Of a stretch of DNA of 64,000 nucleotides, positions 4,008 through 21,272 are shown in pieces. Within the stretch, counting starts at the first letter, position 1. The number at the start of each line of letters is the position of its first letter. The notes beneath the pieces were generated by a model, which saw only the letters and a list, made by a program, of their open reading frames with translations, was not told the DNA's origin and ran no database searches. Both the position numbers and the translations under genes were made by a program. The DNA comes from Acidimicrobiia bacterium (GTDB lineage: Bacteria; Actinomycetota; Acidimicrobiia; Spongiisociales; Spongiisociaceae), in NCBI GenBank assembly GCA_011523635.1, contig WTGI01000009.1, forward strand, positions 16,781-80,780. Direction: 5' to 3'.

Positions 4008-4171
4008 GCCAATTGGCTCGACCGACCCGAGGGAACAATCAGCTTCTAGGAGCGAAGGACCTTCATCCCGGCATCCAGCCGGGTATGGCCGACCACGCTC
4101 CAAACAGGAAAGGTGGTGGTGGGGGAGGGCCCGGTGCGGAGCGCCGGTTTTGCGGCGCGATTTTCGCGTTC
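4008..4171 (+). repeat. Copy 1 of a ~165-nt repeated structured intergenic element (candidate sRNA, cis-RNA or REP/MITE-like)
   Basis: Aligns over its full length with 10957..11118 and partially with the reverse complement of 43910..44076. Shared parts: GCCAATTGGC start, CCCGGCATCCAGCCGGG hairpin, G-rich (GGN)6 tract, hairpin CCGGTGC-GGA-GCGCCGG followed by TTTT, and a terminal CGCGATTTTCGCG hairpin. Reading frames are not conserved between copies, so it is non-coding. Confidence 0.6.
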
Positions 4172-5274
4172 TCGGGCCGGTCCGGCGGTGGCGCCGGGCG
4201 GTTGTGGTGCTGCTTATCTCCTCGCTGGTGGCTTGCGGTTTCGGATCCGACCCGACCGAGGAGGTGCCTTCCCCGGTCTGCGCGTCCGGGCAGATCGACG
4301 GCGAGGTGGTGCTGCTCAGCCGCGACGGGCAGATGGCGCCGGAGGTCATCGACCGGTTCGAGCGGCGCTACGCGGTGGACGTCAAGGAGCTGTTCTACGA
4401 GACCGACGGTGAGATGCTGTCCCGTGTAACCGCAGGCGCCGACCCGTTCGACGTGGTGATTCTTCGCCAGGACCTGGCGGCGATTCTCTGGCGTGGAGGC
4501 CAGCTCCACGCTCTCGACCCGATCGCCTTGCCGGGTCGGGTCAACCTCGACACGCAGCTCACCCGACCGGACTCGGATACCGAGGGCTTCTACACGGTGC
4601 CGCTCGTCTGGGGCACGGTCGGGATCGGTTTGAATGTCAACGTGGTGCCGGACACGGCCGAAACGAGCTGGGGACTCATCTTCGATCTCTCCCAAGCTTG
4701 GATCTACGCGGGTCGGGTCTCGCTCCTTGATGATCCCCGCCAGGTCATGGCCGCCGCCATGTTCTACCTGGGCTACTCGCCGAACTCGGCGAATCGGGAC
4801 GAGGTGCGGGAAGCCGGCCGGGTGGTGGCGGAGGCGAAGGCCCACTTGAGAGGGTTCGATTCCGAGGACTACGCGGCCAGGTTGGCCGATGGGGGGCTCG
4901 ACCTTGCTCAAGGCCGGTCGGATGACTTCCTGGCGGCCCTTGCGCCCGCCTCGGACGACTTCCTCTACGTCATACCCCAGGAAGGGGCCGCGATCTGGTT
5001 GGAGTCGATGGCCGTACCCGTCACCTCCCAGCATCCGTGCAGTGCCCACTCCTTCATCGACTACCTGCTCGAGCCTCGGACAGGAGCGCTAGTGGCCGAC
5101 CATATCGGAGAGGCCACCGCGAATACGGCCTCGCTTTCGTACCTGATGCCCGAGACCGCCGCCAACCGGACGCTCTATCCGACGCTCCTGGCCAGGGAGC
5201 GGCTGGTGCTCCTCGAATACACGGAGGAACTGGACCTCCTGTACGCCGAGGAGTTCGCTCTGGTGGTGGAATAG
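4150..5274 (+). CDS. polyamine (PotD/PotF-like) ABC transporter substrate-binding lipoprotein
   Basis: Lipoprotein signal RRWRRAVVVLLISSLVAC. SBP_bac_1/8-like body (DVVILRQD, YTVPLVWGTVGIGLN, YVIPQEGA) typical of spermidine/putrescine-binding proteins. The track ORF extends to 3922 only by reading through the repeat element. TTG 4150 or a downstream GTG is the likely start. Confidence 0.5.
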   Translation: MRRDFRVLGPVRRWRRAVVVLLISSLVACGFGSDPTEEVPSPVCASGQIDGEVVLLSRDGQMAPEVIDRFERRYAVDVKELFYETDGEMLSRVTAGADPFDVVILRQDLAAILWRGGQLHALDPIALPGRVNLDTQLTRPDSDTEGFYTVPLVWGTVGIGLNVNVVPDTAETSWGLIFDLSQAWIYAGRVSLLDDPRQVMAAAMFYLGYSPNSANRDEVREAGRVVAEAKAHLRGFDSEDYAARLADGGLDLAQGRSDDFLAALAPASDDFLYVIPQEGAAIWLESMAVPVTSQHPCSAHSFIDYLLEPRTGALVADHIGEATANTASLSYLMPETAANRTLYPTLLARERLVLLEYTEELDLLYAEEFALVVE

Positions 5275-16627: not shown

Positions 16628-16746
16628 TTGAGGTTTGCCGAGGTGGTTGCTACGTCGCGGAAGATCGCGGGCACGAGGGCGCGCCGCGCCAAGGTAGCCG
16701 GTCTGGCCGATCTCCTCGCTCGGGCGGAGCCCGAAGAGATACGGAT
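16628..16746 (+). pseudogene. 5' fragment (about 40 codons) of an ATP-dependent DNA ligase (LigB-like), separated from the rest of the gene by an IS insertion
   Basis: TTG start with a GGAGG RBS. It encodes MRFAEVVATSRKIAGTRARRAKVAGLADLLARAEPEEIR, a LigB N-terminus. The frame resumes exactly at 19866 after the element (EEIR|ILVGFLSGRP). Confidence 0.7.
16739..16746. repeat. 8-bp target-site duplication, left copy (ATACGGAT)
   Basis: Identical 8-mer at 19866..19873, immediately outside the other inverted repeat. Confidence 0.8.
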
Positions 16747-16768
16747 GGGAATTATACGCTTGACTTGA
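16747..16768. repeat. left terminal inverted repeat of the IS1595-family element
   Basis: GGGAATTATACGCTTGACTTGA. Similarity extends a few nt further inward. Confidence 0.8.
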
Positions 16769-16783
16769 AGCGGAGCGGGGTAT

Positions 16784-16960
16784 CAGTCGAGGAGTGCTTC
16801 AGCGGCAGCGTCTAGGAACTCGATGTCATGCTGGTAGGCCGCGATTATCCGCTGGGCGTCGTCGGGCGTGATGAACGTGTTGGTGAGGTCTGAGACCAAC
16901 CGATCGGTCCGTCCCTGCTTCAGGGCTTCAACGTCGGGGGTTGGCTGTTCGTCTGTCATT
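16784..16960 (-). CDS. hypothetical small protein (58 aa) inside the transposon
   Basis: Not in the track because it is under 60 aa. ATG preceded by an AGGAGGGA RBS. MTDEQPTPDVEALKQGRTDRLVSDLTNTFITPDDAQRIIAAYQHDIEFLDAAAEALLD. Confidence 0.3.
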
Positions 16961-17093
16961 CTGGTCCCTCCTGGTGAGTGGTGGCTTCCCGATCAGCGCT
17001 CTGGCTACGTCGATGGGTGTGGCACCCCGATAGGCCGGGTTCTCCGCCGGTGTGTGTGACCACTCATCGACCTTCGCCCGGCGGGTTTCGTCC

Positions 17094-17366
17094 TTAGACA
17101 CCGGCGCCGCCTTCTAGGTCCTGGACCCGAACGGTCAGGTCCGATACCGCGTCGATAAGCGCGGTGACGCCGGACTTGACGAAAGTCATGTCGTTCTCCA
17201 ACCCGTCGAGCCGTCCGTCCATTATGTCGAGTCTGCCGTCTATCCCGTCGAGCCTGCCGTTGATCCTGCCGATATCGCCCTTGATGACACCAAGGTCGTT
17301 CAGGATCACCGAGAACGCGGTCTCGATGTCGAACCCCTTGGGTTGACGGCGCGGCAGCGCGGCCAT
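17094..17366 (-). CDS. small coiled-coil protein with DGxxGRLD heptad-like repeats (passenger gene)
   Basis: The 90-aa version starts at MAALPRRQ with a GGAAGGAA RBS. Repeats are GRINGRLDGIDGRLDIMDGRLDGLEND. It loosely resembles XhlA-like phage coiled-coil proteins. Confidence 0.45.
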   Translation of the reverse strand: MAALPRRQPKGFDIETAFSVILNDLGVIKGDIGRINGRLDGIDGRLDIMDGRLDGLENDMTFVKSGVTALIDAVSDLTVRVQDLEGGAGV

Positions 17367-17449
17367 CTTGGTTCCTTCCAGATTGGACTGACTCGATCCT
17401 AACTCTACCAGCCGGGCGACAACCGTTGTCACGATCCGGTACGCTGGGC

Positions 17450-17567
17450 GTTGCCACCGACAACCCAGGAATCCCGCACCCGTGAGGGACCTGTACCGCA
17501 TGGTCCCTTCGGTCGGTTACGGGTTCCTGTGTCGGTGGCAACGGTACAGACCCCAACCGAAGGGACC
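17450..17567 (+). promoter_or_regulatory. structured 5' leader with RBS-sequestering alternative pairing upstream of the small membrane protein / SLH protein genes
   Basis: 13-bp perfect outer stem GTTGCCACCGACA...TGTCGGTGGCAAC and inner stem GAGGGACC..GGTCCCTTC. The segment GGTCCCTTCGG is also perfectly complementary to CCGAAGGGACC, which contains the GAAGGGA RBS 6 nt before the ATG at 17573. Confidence 0.45.
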
Positions 17568-17572
17568 ACCAC

Positions 17573-17896
17573 ATGGCCGACGATCTTGTACTTGAGGGGC
17601 AACCCGCCGCCCAGCCACCCATTCAGGCCGCCCCGAGCACCCGCGGTATCTTCTACGTGCTGGTCGGAATCCTGATCGTCCTCGCGGGCATTCTGTACTT
17701 CGTAGCTGACCAGGCTCTAGTCAACCCCATCAAACTGAAACAGGACTATTGCGTAGAGAGCGACGGCCAGGTCGTCTGGTCCACCGGCGGCGGCCTGATA
17801 TGCGACCAGAGACCCCTCCAGTCAATCGGTGAGAGCTTCGGCCAGAACGATTGGGTCATCATGGACGGCGCCTCGGCTAACCCCTTCGGCGGGTAG
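17573..17896 (+). CDS. small single-pass membrane protein (passenger gene)
   Basis: 107 aa. TM is GIFYVLVGILIVLAGILYFV. The C-terminal ectodomain has two Cys. Confidence 0.45.
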   Translation: MADDLVLEGQPAAQPPIQAAPSTRGIFYVLVGILIVLAGILYFVADQALVNPIKLKQDYCVESDGQVVWSTGGGLICDQRPLQSIGESFGQNDWVIMDGASANPFGG

Positions 17897-17899
17897 ACC

Positions 17900-18553
17900 A
17901 TGAGAACCAAACAAGTCACAGCCATTGCGTTGGTGCTAGTCCTGGCGGGCGGGTTGTCGGTGTGGGCACAGGCGTCCCGGTTTTCCGACGTACCAGACAG
18001 TCACCCCCAAGCGCACGATATCGAACACGCCGCCGAGCAGGGCTGGTTCGCCGGGTTCGTGGATGGCACGTTCCGACCAGACCAGACCATCTCAGCGGAG
18101 AACGCTCTGAGGGTGTTCAACCGGGCATTCCCCGAAGGTGTCACCCGTGCCGACCTCTCTACGTTCCTGCGGGCTGGGGCCAACCAGTTGGCCACCATCC
18201 ACCATGACGGATATTGGGGCTGCGTGAATGTCACCGATCAGGCCGCCGAACTGTCCGGTGGCGTAGTCGAGTCGATGGTCTTGCAGACCCTCTGCTACCT
18301 GAGAGTCGAACAGCAAATACGCAACGGGCAGGTGTGGGTTATCGCCCGCATCCAGACGCTCACCGACTGCCCGCGAGGCTGGGAGTTGGTGGTGCGCCTA
18401 TCGCCCGGTGAAGGCCTCGCCCCGTCCAGAACGTTAGGAACGGGGTACTCACCGAAGGCGTGGGCCGGTGATGTCCTGGTGGTTGGTGTCCCGTCGAACA
18501 TGGACCGATGGGAAACCCTCGACGTCACATCCGACTGCCACCAGCCCTGGTAA
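17900..18553 (+). CDS. secreted SLH (S-layer homology) domain protein (passenger gene)
   Basis: Signal peptide MRTKQVTAIALVLVLAGGLSVWAQA. SLH motif FSDVPDSHPQAHDIEHAAEQGWFAGFVDGTFRPDQTISAENALRVFNRAF. Cys-containing C-terminal domain of about 140 aa with unknown function. Confidence 0.6.
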   Translation: MRTKQVTAIALVLVLAGGLSVWAQASRFSDVPDSHPQAHDIEHAAEQGWFAGFVDGTFRPDQTISAENALRVFNRAFPEGVTRADLSTFLRAGANQLATIHHDGYWGCVNVTDQAAELSGGVVESMVLQTLCYLRVEQQIRNGQVWVIARIQTLTDCPRGWELVVRLSPGEGLAPSRTLGTGYSPKAWAGDVLVVGVPSNMDRWETLDVTSDCHQPW

Positions 18554-18560
18554 GGGGCTC

Positions 18561-18815
18561 CTATCGACAGAGCCGTTCAAGGGCGTCGTGTCCCTGCCAC
18601 GTCAGCCGCCCGAGGCGGGCATAACGCAGACCACCGCCCGATACGGCGATGGGTTTGCTGGCTTCGAGGTATCCGGCCTGTTCGCACAGGTGGACGTGGT
18701 AGTGAACCTGATCCGTGTCGTACCCGTCGATCTCGGGCACCGCACGCCCGGCAAGAGTGGGGGCCGATTCCGCGTACCGGAGAATCTCGCAGATGAGTTC
18801 CATGACTCGGGACAT
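18561..18815 (-). CDS. DUF2513 family protein (phage-associated small protein)
   Basis: 84 aa. MELICEILRYAE...IDGYDTDQVHYHVHLCEQAGYLEA...GGGLRYARLGRLTWQGHDALERL matches the DUF2513 pattern. Confidence 0.45.
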   Translation of the reverse strand: MSRVMELICEILRYAESAPTLAGRAVPEIDGYDTDQVHYHVHLCEQAGYLEASKPIAVSGGGLRYARLGRLTWQGHDALERLCR

Positions 18816-18828
18816 GCGTCGAAGCCTA

Positions 18829-19833
18829 CTAGGTGGCTAGGGAACTCTGCCCGGTGTCTGCGATCAGGTCTCGGTACATGAGACGGCGTCCGACCATCGC
18901 GGCAACTACGTGCTGCATCTGCGCGAGGGTGTCCCACTCGCGGATGTTCTGACGGCCTGCGAACACGTCGACGTACCGCTGTAGGTGCTTGGGGGAGAGC
19001 CGGTGGTAGACGCCTTTGTGGGCTCGTTTGAGCATCGACCAGAAGGATTCGACTCCGTTGGTGTGAACCATGTCCCTCACGTACTCGCCGACCGAGTGGT
19101 GGACAGCTTCACGGTTGGGGAGGCCGTCGTAGGCGGTTGACCCGTCCGTGTAGACCGGGGCGTTAGGGACGCGGTGTTCTTCGACGAATCCCTGGAGGGT
19201 GCAGGCCGTGGTGTTGGGCACGACTCGGGCGACGACTTGGCCGGTGGTGCGGTCCTTCATACCGACCACGGCGGTCTTACCGACCGGCCCGCGGCCGAGG
19301 TTCTGACGCTTGGAGCGGTGCTTGTTGCGCTCCAGACCGCCCACGTAGGTCTCGTCGACTTCGACCGGCCCCTCGAACAACGGGGCGATACCGGCGAACG
19401 CTTCCCGTATCCGATGGAGCATGAACCAGGCCGTAGCCTGCCGGACTCCGAGGTCACGGTGCAGCTTCATGGAGGACACGCCTTTGAGGCTGGTGAGCTC
19501 GAGGTAGATCGCCCACGCCCACATACGGAGCGGGAGCTTGGAGTCTTCCATGGCGGTGCCGGTCTTCAACGAGAAGTAGCGGCGGCACGTCCGGCAGCGG
19601 TACGGCATCGGCTTGGCGGACTTGACGCGGTAGGCGTCGTCCGATCCGCAGCGCAGGCACGCTATCTCACCGGTCGGCCAGTGGATGGCCTCGAACCAAT
19701 CGACGGCGTGCTGTTCGGTGGCGAACAACTCCGTCATCTGGAGGACGCTGATACCCTCGCGGTGTGCCTTGCCGGGGGCCTTTTGGCTTGCTCTGACAGT
19801 TGTGGTGCTCATGCCTGTATTCTCGCAGGTCAC
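18829..19833 (-). CDS. IS1595 family transposase (ISXO2-like DDE domain plus N-terminal zinc ribbon)
   Basis: CLRCGSDDAYRV...YRCRTCRRYFS zinc ribbon. ISXO2-like core VDETYVGG...KTAVVGMKDR...YTDGSTAY...HTNGVESFWSMLKR. It starts 32 nt inside the right inverted repeat. Confidence 0.85.
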   Translation of the reverse strand: MTCENTGMSTTTVRASQKAPGKAHREGISVLQMTELFATEQHAVDWFEAIHWPTGEIACLRCGSDDAYRVKSAKPMPYRCRTCRRYFSLKTGTAMEDSKLPLRMWAWAIYLELTSLKGVSSMKLHRDLGVRQATAWFMLHRIREAFAGIAPLFEGPVEVDETYVGGLERNKHRSKRQNLGRGPVGKTAVVGMKDRTTGQVVARVVPNTTACTLQGFVEEHRVPNAPVYTDGSTAYDGLPNREAVHHSVGEYVRDMVHTNGVESFWSMLKRAHKGVYHRLSPKHLQRYVDVFAGRQNIREWDTLAQMQHVVAAMVGRRLMYRDLIADTGQSSLAT

Positions 19834-21272
19834 GCCCGGTTTGTCAAGTCAAGCGTATAATCCCCATACGGATCCTGGTCGGCTTCCTCTCCGGCCGGCC
19901 GCGGCAGGGACGTGTTGGCGTGGGCCCGGCCGCGCTGTGGGCTTCGAAGGTCGATCCCGTGCCGGAACCGATCCTCGACATCACGGAGGTAGATCGGGTG
20001 ATCGGCACGATCCCGGGTATCACGGGTTCCGGTTCCCAGGCTCGCCGGACCGACCTGCTCGAGTTCCTGCTCGGTAGGGCCACCTCTGACGAGCAGGACT
20101 ACCTGCGGCGGCTGCTGACCGGAGAACTGCGGCACGGCGCGCTCGAGGGCCTGATGATGGACGCGGTGGCGGTGGCGTCGGGAATCGATGCGGCAGTGGT
20201 GAGGCGGGCCGCCATGCTCGGGGGTGACCTCGGATCGATCGCCGTTCCGGCCCTCACGGAGGGAGCGGAGGCTCTGCAGGCGATGCGCATCGTTCCGTTG
20301 CGGCCGGTCCGGCCGATGCTGGCCTCGACCTCCGCGTCGGCCGCGGATGCGATGGAGTCGTCCGGGCGGGCATCGGTGGAGTGGAAGCTCGACGGCGTCC
20401 GCATCCAGGCGCACCGGTCCGGTTCGCAGGTGGCGGTGTTCAGCCGGCGGCTCAACGACGTCACCGACCGGCTGCCGCTGGTGGCCGAGGTGGTGTCCGG
20501 CCTTCCCGTCTCGAGCGTGGTGCTCGACGGGGAGGTGCTGGCTCATGATCTCGAGGGCCGGCCGGAGCGCTTCGAGCAGATCATGAGCCACTTCGGCACC
20601 CATGAGGAGGGCGGCAGGAAACCGCTGTACCCGCACTTCTTCGACATCCTGCATCTCGACGGCGAGGATCTGATCGACCTTCCCCTCGGACGGCGCATCG
20701 CCGTGCTCGAGGACCTGGTCCCGAGCGAGTGTCTGGTTCCCAGGCTGGTCACCGACCGGGTCGCGGAAGCCGAGGGTGCCTTGTCGGAAGCCCGCCGGAG
20801 CCGCCACGAGGGGATCATGGTCAAGGCGATCGGCTCGACCTACCAGGCGGGCCGGAGGGGGTCGGCCTGGCTCAAGGTCAAGCCGGCCTATCACCTCGAC
20901 CTGGTGGTGCTGGCCGCCGAATGGGGCCACGGGCGCCGGACCGGGCGGCTCTCCAACCTGCACCTGGGTGCCCGGGACGCCGAGAGCGACCGGTTCGTGA
21001 TGGTGGGCAAGACCTTCAAGGGCCTGACCGATGCGATGCTGGCCTGGCAGACCGAGCGGTTCCTGGAGATCGCGGTCCGAAGGGAACGCCATGTCGTGTT
21101 CCTGCAGCCCGAGGTGGTGGTGGAGGTGGCCTTCGACGGGGTTCAGTCGAGCCCGGTGTATCCGGGCGGGGTAGCGCTCCGTTTCGCCCGCGTCAAGCAG
21201 TACCGGCCCGACAAGCCGCCCGTTCAGGCCGACACCATCCAGCGGATCCAGCGGATATTCGAGGAACGCTGA
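19800..21272 (+). CDS. ATP-dependent DNA ligase (LigB-like), 3' portion after the IS insertion point
   Basis: EWKLDGVR (KxDG adenylation motif), then the OB domain and C-terminal LKVKPAYHLDLVV. The track ORF begins at an ATG inside the transposon right end (19800). Native codons resume at 19866 (IRILVGFLSGRPRQ, compare mycobacterial LigB). Confidence 0.75.
   Translation: MWCSCLYSRRSRPVCQVKRIIPIRILVGFLSGRPRQGRVGVGPAALWASKVDPVPEPILDITEVDRVIGTIPGITGSGSQARRTDLLEFLLGRATSDEQDYLRRLLTGELRHGALEGLMMDAVAVASGIDAAVVRRAAMLGGDLGSIAVPALTEGAEALQAMRIVPLRPVRPMLASTSASAADAMESSGRASVEWKLDGVRIQAHRSGSQVAVFSRRLNDVTDRLPLVAEVVSGLPVSSVVLDGEVLAHDLEGRPERFEQIMSHFGTHEEGGRKPLYPHFFDILHLDGEDLIDLPLGRRIAVLEDLVPSECLVPRLVTDRVAEAEGALSEARRSRHEGIMVKAIGSTYQAGRRGSAWLKVKPAYHLDLVVLAAEWGHGRRTGRLSNLHLGARDAESDRFVMVGKTFKGLTDAMLAWQTERFLEIAVRRERHVVFLQPEVVVEVAFDGVQSSPVYPGGVALRFARVKQYRPDKPPVQADTIQRIQRIFEER
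19844..19865. repeat. right terminal inverted repeat of the IS1595-family element
   Basis: TCAAGTCAAGCGTATAATCCCC is the reverse complement of GGGGATTATACGCTTGACTTGA. Confidence 0.8.
19866..19873. repeat. 8-bp target-site duplication, right copy (ATACGGAT)
   Basis: Identical to 16739..16746. Confidence 0.8.

What the first reader, a model, noticed from the sequence alone, without database searches (positions are those of the whole stretch)
17450..17575. Riboswitch-like leader inside the transposon: a long hairpin whose 3' arm can alternatively sequester the RBS of the membrane-protein / SLH-protein operon
The 206-bp divergent region contains a 13-bp perfect stem (GTTGCCACCGACA / TGTCGGTGGCAAC) enclosing a second stem (GAGGGACC / GGTCCCTTC). 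The strand GGTCCCTTCGG (17502..17512) is also the exact reverse complement of CCGAAGGGACC (17557..17567), which includes the GAAGGGA Shine-Dalgarno 6 nt before the ATG at 17573. Two mutually exclusive pairings for the same segment, one of which occludes the RBS, is the architecture of riboswitches, RNA thermometers and attenuators. Finding it in front of passenger genes on a mobile element is unusual.
Basis: seen in the sequence. Interest (0 to 1): 0.55.

Follow-up and report, generated by a model that had tools for sequence, protein, structure and literature searches.

The report
Conserved switch-like mRNA leader on transposon
The hairpin is real and is a previously uncatalogued, evolutionarily conserved folded RNA leader that sits in front of the cargo genes of a small transposon family in sponge-associated actinobacteria and can fold either to expose or to hide the ribosome-binding site.

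Summary
Window 17449-17568 holds a long hairpin, and its inner 3' strand (GGTCCCTTCGG) is an exact complement of the Shine-Dalgarno (SD) block. Two of the three perfect inverted repeats of at least 13 nt in the 64-kb window lie here.

The element sits inside a bona fide IS1595-family transposon (16747-19865, 22-bp inverted repeats, 8-bp target duplication). I found nine further, diverged copies in Ca. Spongiisocius and related sponge metagenome contigs. They precede different cargo genes encoding membrane, SLH or secreted proteins. No Rfam family matches.

Across the ten copies:
- The outer stems P1 and P2 covary strongly.
- The inner stem is kept through G:U changes.
- The anti-SD and SD strands are almost invariant, with only U:A to U:G changes.
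It pairs the inner loop with the segment just 5' of the SD and is incompatible with both other folds.

A conserved -35/-10 promoter ends 6-8 nt before the hairpin, so the whole structure should be in the mRNA.

Folding predicts that the intact leader leaves the SD open, and that losing the 5' arm closes it. The best reading is a multi-state translational leader. The trigger is unknown, and a ligand riboswitch is not shown.

The parts
16739..16768 (.). Left end of the IS1595-family transposon: 8-bp target-site duplication ATACGGAT (16739-16746) followed by the terminal inverted repeat GGGAATTATACGCTTGACTTGA (16747-16768)
17094..17366 (-). Divergent 90-aa coiled-coil protein with DGRLDGI heptad repeats. 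It is not conserved next to the leader in other copies.
17416..17445 (+). Predicted promoter: -35-like GCGACA (17416-21), an 18-nt spacer, and -10 TACGCT (17440-45) preceded by GG. A TAnnnT hexamer sits 6-8 nt before P1 in all 8 full copies.
   Evidence: prediction only; no transcription start data
17449..17462 (+). P1 5' arm of the outer stem
   Evidence: 8 of 10 pairs changed on both sides
17466..17474 (+). P2 5' strand
17480..17491 (+). Strand 1, CCGTGAGGGACC: an SD look-alike (anti-anti-SD) that pairs with the anti-SD in stem P3
17486..17498 (+). Helix X 5' strand (strand 1 plus the P3 loop, GGGACCTGTACCG)
   Evidence: (I5)
17501..17516 (+). Strand 2, the anti-SD TGGTCCCTTCGGTCGG. It is nearly invariant in the 10 copies and pairs either with strand 1 (P3) or with the SD block (helix Y).
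   Evidence: (I2)
17521..17543 (+). P2 3' strand (17521-29) and P1 3' arm (17530-43)
17542..17554 (+). Helix X 3' strand (pre-SD segment CGGTACAGACCCC)
17553..17575 (+). SD block CCAACCGAAGGGACCA (17553-68; SD core GAAGGGA 17559-65), a 7-nt spacer, and the ATG at 17573
17573..18553 (+). Cargo operon: a 107-aa single-pass membrane protein (17573-17896) and a 217-aa secreted SLH-domain protein (17900-18553)
18561..19812 (-). DUF2513 protein (18561-18815) and IS1595-type DDE transposase (18829-19812), convergent with the cargo operon
19844..19873 (.). Right terminal inverted repeat (19844-19865) and the second copy of the 8-bp duplication ATACGGAT (19866-19873)

Best explanation
The region is the 5' untranslated leader of the cargo-gene mRNA of an IS1595-family transposon. 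It is a conserved, structured, cis-acting RNA.

Transcription from a promoter whose -10 ends about 4-7 nt upstream begins at the foot of a roughly 95-nt hairpin, H1 (stems P1, P2, P3). Inside H1, an invariant anti-SD (GGUCCCUUCGG) is held by an SD look-alike (strand 1). The true SD, 45 nt downstream, is therefore left single-stranded and the cargo genes are translated.

If the 5' half of H1 is missing, cleaved or occupied, the released anti-SD pairs with the SD block. This is helix Y, 13-16 bp, inside a -35 to -46 kcal/mol hairpin, and it shuts off translation.

A third conserved helix, X, pairs strand 1 plus the P3 loop with the segment just 5' of the SD. It competes with both folds, so the leader has at least three states.

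Shown: the pairings, their conservation or covariation, the promoter-like boxes, and the predicted energetics.

Inferred: that the RNA is made from this promoter, that helix Y represses translation, and what flips the switch. My preferred trigger is loss or unzipping of the 5' arm by RNA processing or decay, or by a trans-acting factor. Confidence in that particular trigger is low, about 0.2. Confidence that this is a conserved structured mRNA leader is about 0.85. Confidence that it controls SD access through helix Y is about 0.5.
For: Conservation independent of the genes:
- The 3' half of the leader is 77-85% identical to other copies, while the adjacent coding sequences are 70-73% identical or unrelated.
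- There are ten distinct copies: the window plus L009, L010, L011, L012, L016, L018, L022, L023 and L025.

Structure counts:
- H1 on alignment A5 is 88% paired. Fourteen pairs changed on both sides, and 0 of 500 shuffles reach the observed values. Slid controls give 35-48% paired.
- Helix X on alignment A6: 8 of 13 pairs changed on both sides, with a covariation score of 0.409 against 0.146 in shuffles (0 of 500). Cognate strand pairings are the best of 120 permutations.
- Helix Y is 94% paired. Its only variable paired positions are purine changes opposite U.
- Within the same hairpin, the segment that has the alternative partner is frozen, while the segment without one (P1, P2) covaries freely.

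Strand: H1 contains 17 G:U cells against 4 A:C cells, which favours the + strand RNA.

Promoter: a TAnnnT hexamer lies 6-8 nt before P1 in 8 of 8 full copies, with a -35-like hexamer at 17-18 nt spacing.

Energetics:
- The minimum-energy fold is H1, with the SD open, in 8 of 8 copies. Forcing helix Y costs +4 to +17 kcal/mol. The 3' half alone always sequesters the SD.
- Stepwise 5' truncation of the window leader drops the probability that the SD is unpaired from 0.57 to 0.0.
- The natural 5'-truncated copy L023 is predicted to be locked with the SD paired.

Not coding: neither the upstream ORF on the + strand nor the ORF on the minus strand is conserved in frame or length.

DNA-level argument: the spacing between the two complementary blocks varies by 5 bp among copies, which argues against a phased DNA operator.
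Against: - There are no expression or transcription start data. The promoter is only a consensus match, and the generic scan found none at its threshold.
- Helix Y has no covariation because both strands are invariant. Their conservation could have another cause.
- H1 is so much more stable than the helix Y state that no spontaneous switching is expected, and no trigger is identified.
- Helix X is not explained by the simple ON/OFF model.
- Only 10 sequences from about 5 lineages, all from one narrow clade, were available. Alignments A5 and A6 were fitted to the tested structures.
- No Rfam family matches.
Confidence: 0.5

Rival explanations
1. H1 is only a 5'-terminal stabiliser or insulator hairpin that protects the cargo mRNA from 5'-end-dependent RNases. 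The anti-SD:SD complementarity is a by-product, for example of an SD-derived duplication, with no regulatory use.
For: The predicted start lies at the foot of P1. H1 is the dominant fold, with the SD open, in every copy. No trigger is known.
Against: This does not explain why strand 2 and the 23-nt SD block are invariant while the rest of the same hairpin covaries freely. It also does not explain why a third pairing, X, covaries.
Confidence: 0.17
2. It is a true riboswitch-like sensor. A small molecule, protein or sRNA stabilises one conformer, for example a P1+X pseudoknot or an opened P3, and thereby sets SD access.
For: There are two or three mutually exclusive helices, at least two of them supported by covariation. 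The sequence blocks are highly conserved, and the position directly 5' of the start codon is cis-regulatory.
Against: No Rfam match. The architecture is rod-like, and most conserved bases are already accounted for by helix Y. The cargo genes are heterogeneous, with no shared pathway. The distribution is very narrow.
Confidence: 0.15
3. The roughly 24-bp near-perfect P1-P2 duplex is an RNase III processing site. Cleavage removes the hairpin and sets mRNA half-life or translation.
For: The stem is long, nearly perfect and conserved by covariation. Its length suits RNase III (my own knowledge).
Against: Double-strand cleavage would release the anti-SD together with the apical fragment, leaving helices Y and X without a role. 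There are no cleavage data.
Confidence: 0.08
4. It is a DNA-level element. The inverted 11-13-bp blocks would be half-sites of a repressor or transposase-accessory protein (for example DUF2513) that controls the divergent promoters.
For: Both blocks are invariant, as operator half-sites would be. The region is a divergent promoter region in the window.
Against: The spacing between the blocks varies from 67 to 72 bp. DUF2513 and the divergent gene are absent from other copies. The P1, P2 and X covariation, and the G:U-type changes, are RNA signatures. There is no similarity to the terminal repeats.
Confidence: 0.04
5. The functional RNA is made from the minus strand, or is a separate small RNA, rather than the cargo mRNA leader.
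For: The A:C mismatches of helix X on the + strand would be G:U on the minus strand. CATG and the SD-like block read the same on both strands. In the window, a 135-codon minus-strand ORF starts at 17501.
Against: H1 has 17 G:U cells against 4 A:C cells on the + strand. Minus-strand ORFs range from 12 to 135 codons, with no conserved peptide. The promoter, SD and start codon are all arranged for the + strand.
Confidence: 0.05

Closest known systems
Anti-anti-SD / anti-SD / SD expression platforms of translational riboswitches and sRNA-activated leaders (for example the thiM TPP riboswitch and the rpoS leader opened by DsrA; my own knowledge)
   Same: Three-strand logic: an anti-SD can pair either with the SD or with an upstream decoy, and the element sits directly 5' of the start codon.
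   Different: No recognisable aptamer and no Rfam match. The decoy is locked by a long 5'-terminal hairpin, so the default state is ON. A third competing helix, X, is present.
Folding-pathway mRNAs of type I toxin-antitoxin systems (hok/sok; the H. pylori aapA3 metastable SD-sequestering hairpins, PMC6733600)
   Same: Several mutually exclusive, phylogenetically conserved helices in a 5' region. The SD is sequestered by upstream CU-rich anti-SD segments, and the state depends on which part of the RNA is present or processed.
   Different: The downstream genes encode diverse 103-296-aa membrane or secreted proteins, not a small toxin. No antisense RNA is known. Here the full-length RNA is predicted to be translatable and the 5'-shortened RNA silent, the opposite of tisB- or aapA-type activation by processing.
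Sequestration of translation initiation signals in IS10/IS50 transposase mRNAs (summarised in 10.1101/2025.01.24.634351; see also the ISPpu9 5' UTR, PMC8450116)
   Same: Transposon-borne. An upstream complementary segment can hide the ribosome-binding site in an mRNA secondary structure.
   Different: Those elements control the transposase and discriminate read-through from native transcripts, because the promoter lies between the arms. Here the regulated genes are cargo, the transposase is convergent, and the promoter precedes all arms.
5'-terminal stabiliser stem-loops (ompA-type 5' UTR hairpins; my own knowledge)
   Same: A stable hairpin within a few nucleotides of the predicted 5' end.
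   Different: A stabiliser needs no invariant anti-SD, no SD complementarity and no alternative covarying helix.

Membership tests
Known riboswitch / cis-regulatory RNA family (Rfam 15) | Match to a curated covariance model | tested here: not met
   No hits at gathering thresholds across the 64-kb window. The permissive scan of 17300-17700 gave only miRNA-precursor hairpin noise with E of at least 0.12.
Riboswitch (ligand-sensing leader) | Mutually exclusive pairings that link a sensor to the SD (expression platform) | tested here: met
   P3, Y and X all compete for the same strands. H1 and X are supported by covariation.
Riboswitch (ligand-sensing leader) | Conserved aptamer with a ligand pocket, and association with genes of one pathway | tested here: not met
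   H1 is a rod-like hairpin. Its conserved bases are accounted for by helix Y. The cargo is heterogeneous: single-pass membrane proteins, SLH proteins, a DUF4352 protein and unknown secreted proteins.
Riboswitch (ligand-sensing leader) | Ligand-dependent structural change | not testable with these tools
   Needs in-line probing, SHAPE or reporters.
RNA thermometer (ROSE / fourU type) | SD held in a weak, mismatch-containing hairpin that melts in the physiological range | tested here: not met
   In the full leader the SD is unpaired in the minimum-energy fold. The SD-sequestering hairpin is -35 to -46 kcal/mol, with 13 perfect bp.
Leader-peptide translational attenuator (ermC / cat type) | Conserved short upstream ORF with its own SD, whose translation remodels the leader | tested here: not met
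   The ATG at 17500 is conserved in 9 of 10 copies. The ORF behind it is 12-72 codons long, or fused to the main ORF in L023, in varying frames. The distance from the SD look-alike ranges from 10 to 16 nt (sequences).
IS10/IS50-type fold-back inhibition | Controls the transposase, with the native promoter between the two complementary arms | tested here: not met
   The leader precedes cargo genes, the transposase is convergent, and the predicted promoter lies 5' of all arms.
Type I toxin mRNA folding switch | Small hydrophobic toxin ORF plus a cis-antisense RNA | tested here: not met
   The downstream ORFs are 103-296 aa and diverse. The antisense RNA was not tested.
IS1595-family transposon (context) | DDE_Tnp_IS1595 plus zinc-ribbon transposase, terminal inverted repeats, 8-bp target duplication | tested here: met
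   PF12762 at 2.7e-38 and PF12760. The 22-bp inverted repeats match at 21 of 22 positions. ATACGGAT is duplicated at both ends. The 8-bp size as typical of the family is from my own knowledge.
5'-terminal stabiliser hairpin | Stem begins within a few nucleotides of the transcript's 5' end | tested here: inconclusive
   The -10 box ends 6-8 nt before the P1 core in 8 of 8 copies, but no transcription start has been measured.

The most novel reading that the evidence does not exclude
The leader is a new class of factor- or ligand-responsive RNA switch carried as a portable expression module by a transposon. A pseudoknotted conformer (P1+X) and the hairpin conformer (P1+P2+P3) would be interconverted by an unknown signal. 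That signal would decide whether the invariant anti-SD is released to silence whichever envelope or secreted-protein cargo the element carries in sponge symbionts.
Probability: 0.12. Interest if true: 0.75.

Novelty: new member of a known kind. Interest (0 to 1): 0.5.

Why it matters
If correct, this is an uncatalogued structured RNA motif with three mutually exclusive conserved pairings. It travels with a transposon as a ready-made promoter-plus-leader cassette while the cargo behind it is swapped.

That would show how a mobile element standardises, and possibly gates, the expression of cell-envelope genes in uncultivated sponge symbionts. It would also add a compact natural example of a default-ON, 5'-integrity-dependent translational switch, which could be tested and reused in high-GC Gram-positive hosts.

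Tried and rejected
- The 107-aa cargo protein has only identical copies in the protein database. All 14 contigs carrying it, and all 13 carrying the transposase, are the same insertion with a 100% identical element, so they give no comparative signal.
- More distant SLH paralogs (L026-L028) lack the motif, so it is not a general SLH-gene leader.
- Seven of the 11 genome-collection pattern hits (Binatia x3, Planctomycetota, Streptomyces, Thermoanaerobaculia, Krumholzibacteria) are unrelated sequences, and model R1 gives none of them a hit with E of 1 or below.
- There are no hits in viral contigs, plasmids or phages.
- The MAFFT alignment A2 was structurally inconsistent and was replaced by alignments fitted to covariance models.
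- A conserved upstream-ORF peptide, and a minus-strand gene starting at the conserved CATG, were both rejected. The upstream ORF in L023 has no codon-position GC signal.
- Specific conservation of the apical part of the SD-sequestering hairpin was not supported (21 of 120 permutations do as well).
- An integron attC site, an intrinsic terminator (no U tract) and a repeated MITE/REP-type element (single copy) were considered and dismissed.
- A literature search for the host genus found nothing.

Full report
**Observation**

- The outer stem is 14 perfect bp, 17449-62 with 17530-43.
- An inner stem pairs GAGGGACC (17484-91) with GGTCCCTT (17502-09).
- GGTCCCTTCGG (17502-12) is an exact complement of CCGAAGGGACC (17557-67). 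The match extends to 13 perfect nt, and to 16 nt with one mismatch.
- The SD core GAAGGGA lies 7 nt (not 6) before the ATG at 17573.

The 64-kb window (66.6% G+C) has only three perfect inverted repeats with arms of at least 13 nt and spacers of at most 100 nt. Two of them are in this leader, against 0.32 expected per window. The region folds with z = -3.7.

**Context**

The element lies in a genuine transposon.
- Inverted repeats: 22 bp, GGGAATTATACGCTTGACTTGA at 16747-68 and its complement at 19844-65.
- Target-site duplication: the 8-bp direct repeat ATACGGAT flanks both ends.
- Transposase: an IS1595-type DDE enzyme (PF12762, 2.7e-38), preceded by a DUF2513 gene, both on the minus strand.
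- Cargo on the plus strand: a 107-aa membrane protein and a 217-aa SLH-domain protein.
- Between the left repeat and the leader: two small minus-strand genes.

**Relatives**

The cargo membrane protein and the transposase occur only as identical copies at one chromosomal site.

Homologues of the SLH protein at 63-73% identity gave three contigs. In them, the only non-coding DNA similar to the window is the 3' half of this leader, at 77-85% identity. That is higher than the coding sequence.

A pattern built from the two invariant blocks retrieved further copies:
- four from the genome collection: two in one Ca. Spongiisocius MAG, one in Ca. S. variivorans and one in an unclassified sponge MAG;
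- three loci from metagenomes, two of which (L023 and L024) carry the same sequence.

The remaining genome hits are unrelated sequences, and the covariance model finds nothing in them at E of 1 or below.

This makes ten distinct copies from about five lineages, all in Acidimicrobiia-like high-GC DNA. There are no hits in Rfam, viral contigs, plasmids or phages.

Inverted-repeat-like ends and homologous transposases flank several copies. The common architecture is: inverted repeat, promoter, leader, cargo, then a convergent transposase and the second inverted repeat.
- In L016 the leader starts about 150 nt from the repeat.
- In L018 the -35 box abuts the repeat.

The cargo differs between copies: single-pass membrane proteins, SLH proteins, a DUF4352 protein and other secreted proteins. 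SLH paralogs outside such elements lack the motif. The leader therefore belongs to the transposon lineage, not to one gene family.

**Structure**

A covariance model built from four well-aligned copies realigned all ten. Pair counts on that alignment:
- P1: 8 of 10 pairs changed on both sides, 96% paired.
- P2: 6 of 6 pairs changed on both sides.
- P3 (strand 1 with strand 2): only one-sided, mostly G:U, changes, because strand 2 is invariant.
- Whole structure: 88% paired, with 0 of 500 shuffles reaching the observed values, against 35-48% paired for slid controls.

G:U cells outnumber A:C cells 17 to 4, so the plus strand is the folded RNA.

The alternative helix Y (strand 2 with the SD block) is 94% paired.
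- Twelve of its 16 pairs never vary.
- The variable paired positions are purine changes opposite U (U:A to U:G).
- One further position is mismatched in most copies.

Helix Y is therefore consistent with selection but cannot be proven by covariation. An indirect argument supports it. Within one hairpin, the stretch that has the alternative partner is frozen in sequence, while the stretches that do not (P1, P2) drift freely with compensation.

A third helix, X, pairs 17486-98 (strand 1 plus the P3 loop) with 17542-54 (just 5' of the SD).
- Its cognate strand pairs are the best of 120 permutations in duplex energy.
- On a model-fitted alignment, 8 of 13 pairs changed on both sides, with a covariation score of 0.409 against 0.146 in shuffles (0 of 500) and 0.02-0.10 in slid controls.

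Helix X crosses P1/P2 with no linker, and crosses Y with a 2-nt linker. It also competes with P3 for strand 1. It therefore defines a further, mutually exclusive conformer or a long-loop pseudoknot with P1. Its role is unexplained (note).

**Promoter and coding checks**
- In all eight full-length copies a TAnnnT hexamer, usually preceded by GG, ends 6-8 nt before the P1 core. A -35-like hexamer lies 17-18 nt upstream of it. The transcript is therefore predicted to start at the foot of P1 and to contain every strand.
- The conserved CATG (17499-17502) opens ORFs on both strands, but their lengths and frames are not conserved.

**Energetics**
- The minimum-energy fold of every full leader is the long hairpin with the SD region largely open. 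The probability that the SD is unpaired is 0.34-0.59.
- Forcing helix Y costs 4-17 kcal/mol.
- The 3' half alone always folds into an SD-sequestering hairpin of -35 to -46 kcal/mol.
- Shortening the window leader from the 5' end drops SD accessibility from 0.57 to 0.0 once the P1 5' arm is gone.
- The natural copy L023/L024, whose 5' half has been replaced, is predicted to be locked shut.
- Specific conservation of the apical part of the closed hairpin is not supported.

**Interpretation**

The best-supported reading is a cis-acting, multi-state translational leader. An intact 5'-terminal hairpin keeps an invariant anti-SD occupied by an SD look-alike, and the SD is open. Removing or opening the 5' arm releases the anti-SD onto the SD.

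What does that in the cell is not shown. RNA processing or decay, a protein, an sRNA or a ligand are all possible.

It works like the expression platform of a translational riboswitch, or like the folding-pathway mRNAs of type I toxins (PMC6733600). It also echoes the sequestration of initiation signals in IS10/IS50. It fails the membership tests of all of these families.

**Rivals**
- A pure stabiliser hairpin leaves the invariant blocks and helix X unexplained.
- An RNase III site leaves helices Y and X unexplained.
- A DNA operator is disfavoured by the variable spacing and by the RNA-type substitutions.
- A minus-strand RNA is disfavoured by the G:U counts and the gene layout.

**Verdict**

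This is a new, narrowly distributed RNA motif of a known general kind, with an unusual transposon-module context and an unexplained third helix. Interest is moderate.

Noticed in passing
window 16739-16746 and 19866-19873: An 8-bp direct repeat, ATACGGAT, flanks the 22-bp terminal inverted repeats. It is a clean target-site duplication that defines the transposon as 16747-19865 (3119 bp). The element is inserted about 55 bp upstream of an ATP-dependent DNA ligase gene and sits at a single site in all public contigs that carry it.
   Followed up: yes
window 18553-18561: The cargo operon (+) and the DUF2513/transposase genes (-) converge with a 7-nt gap and no predicted terminator. Read-through from the cargo promoter would therefore be antisense to the transposase mRNA.
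   Followed up: no
L018 (oriented) 4122-4180: In this copy the transposon's inverted-repeat-like end lies only about 30 nt 5' of P1, so the -35 box sits at the inner edge of the repeat. No transposase or second repeat was found within the 8-kb locus, so this may be a relic end.
   Followed up: partly
L023 / L024 (motif at L023 2004-2128, minus strand): This natural variant has the 5' half of the hairpin replaced by unrelated lower-GC3 DNA. An ISL3-like transposase lies nearby. Its SD is predicted to be permanently paired.
   Followed up: partly
L013, L017, L021 (Binatia MAG OZ243916.1): At least three near-identical copies of an unrelated repeat with CCGTCCCTTCGGC...GCCGAAGGGACGG arms occur in one genome. 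They were picked up by the pattern scan by chance.
   Followed up: no
window 20539-20551 / 20578-20590: This is the only other perfect inverted repeat of at least 13 nt in the window (GGCTCATGATCT... / ...AGATCATGAGCC). It lies inside the DNA ligase coding sequence.
   Followed up: no
window 17197-17272 (minus-strand gene 17094-17366): Three 21-nt tandem repeats encode DGRLDGI-type heptads in the 90-aa divergent protein. The only family hit is a weak match to the coiled-coil family DUF7310.
   Followed up: no
window 17369-17378: GGTTCCTTCC is the complement of the divergent gene's own SD. It pairs with the cargo SD in the fold of the whole intergenic region. It lies upstream of the predicted promoter and so is probably not in the transcript.
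   Followed up: partly
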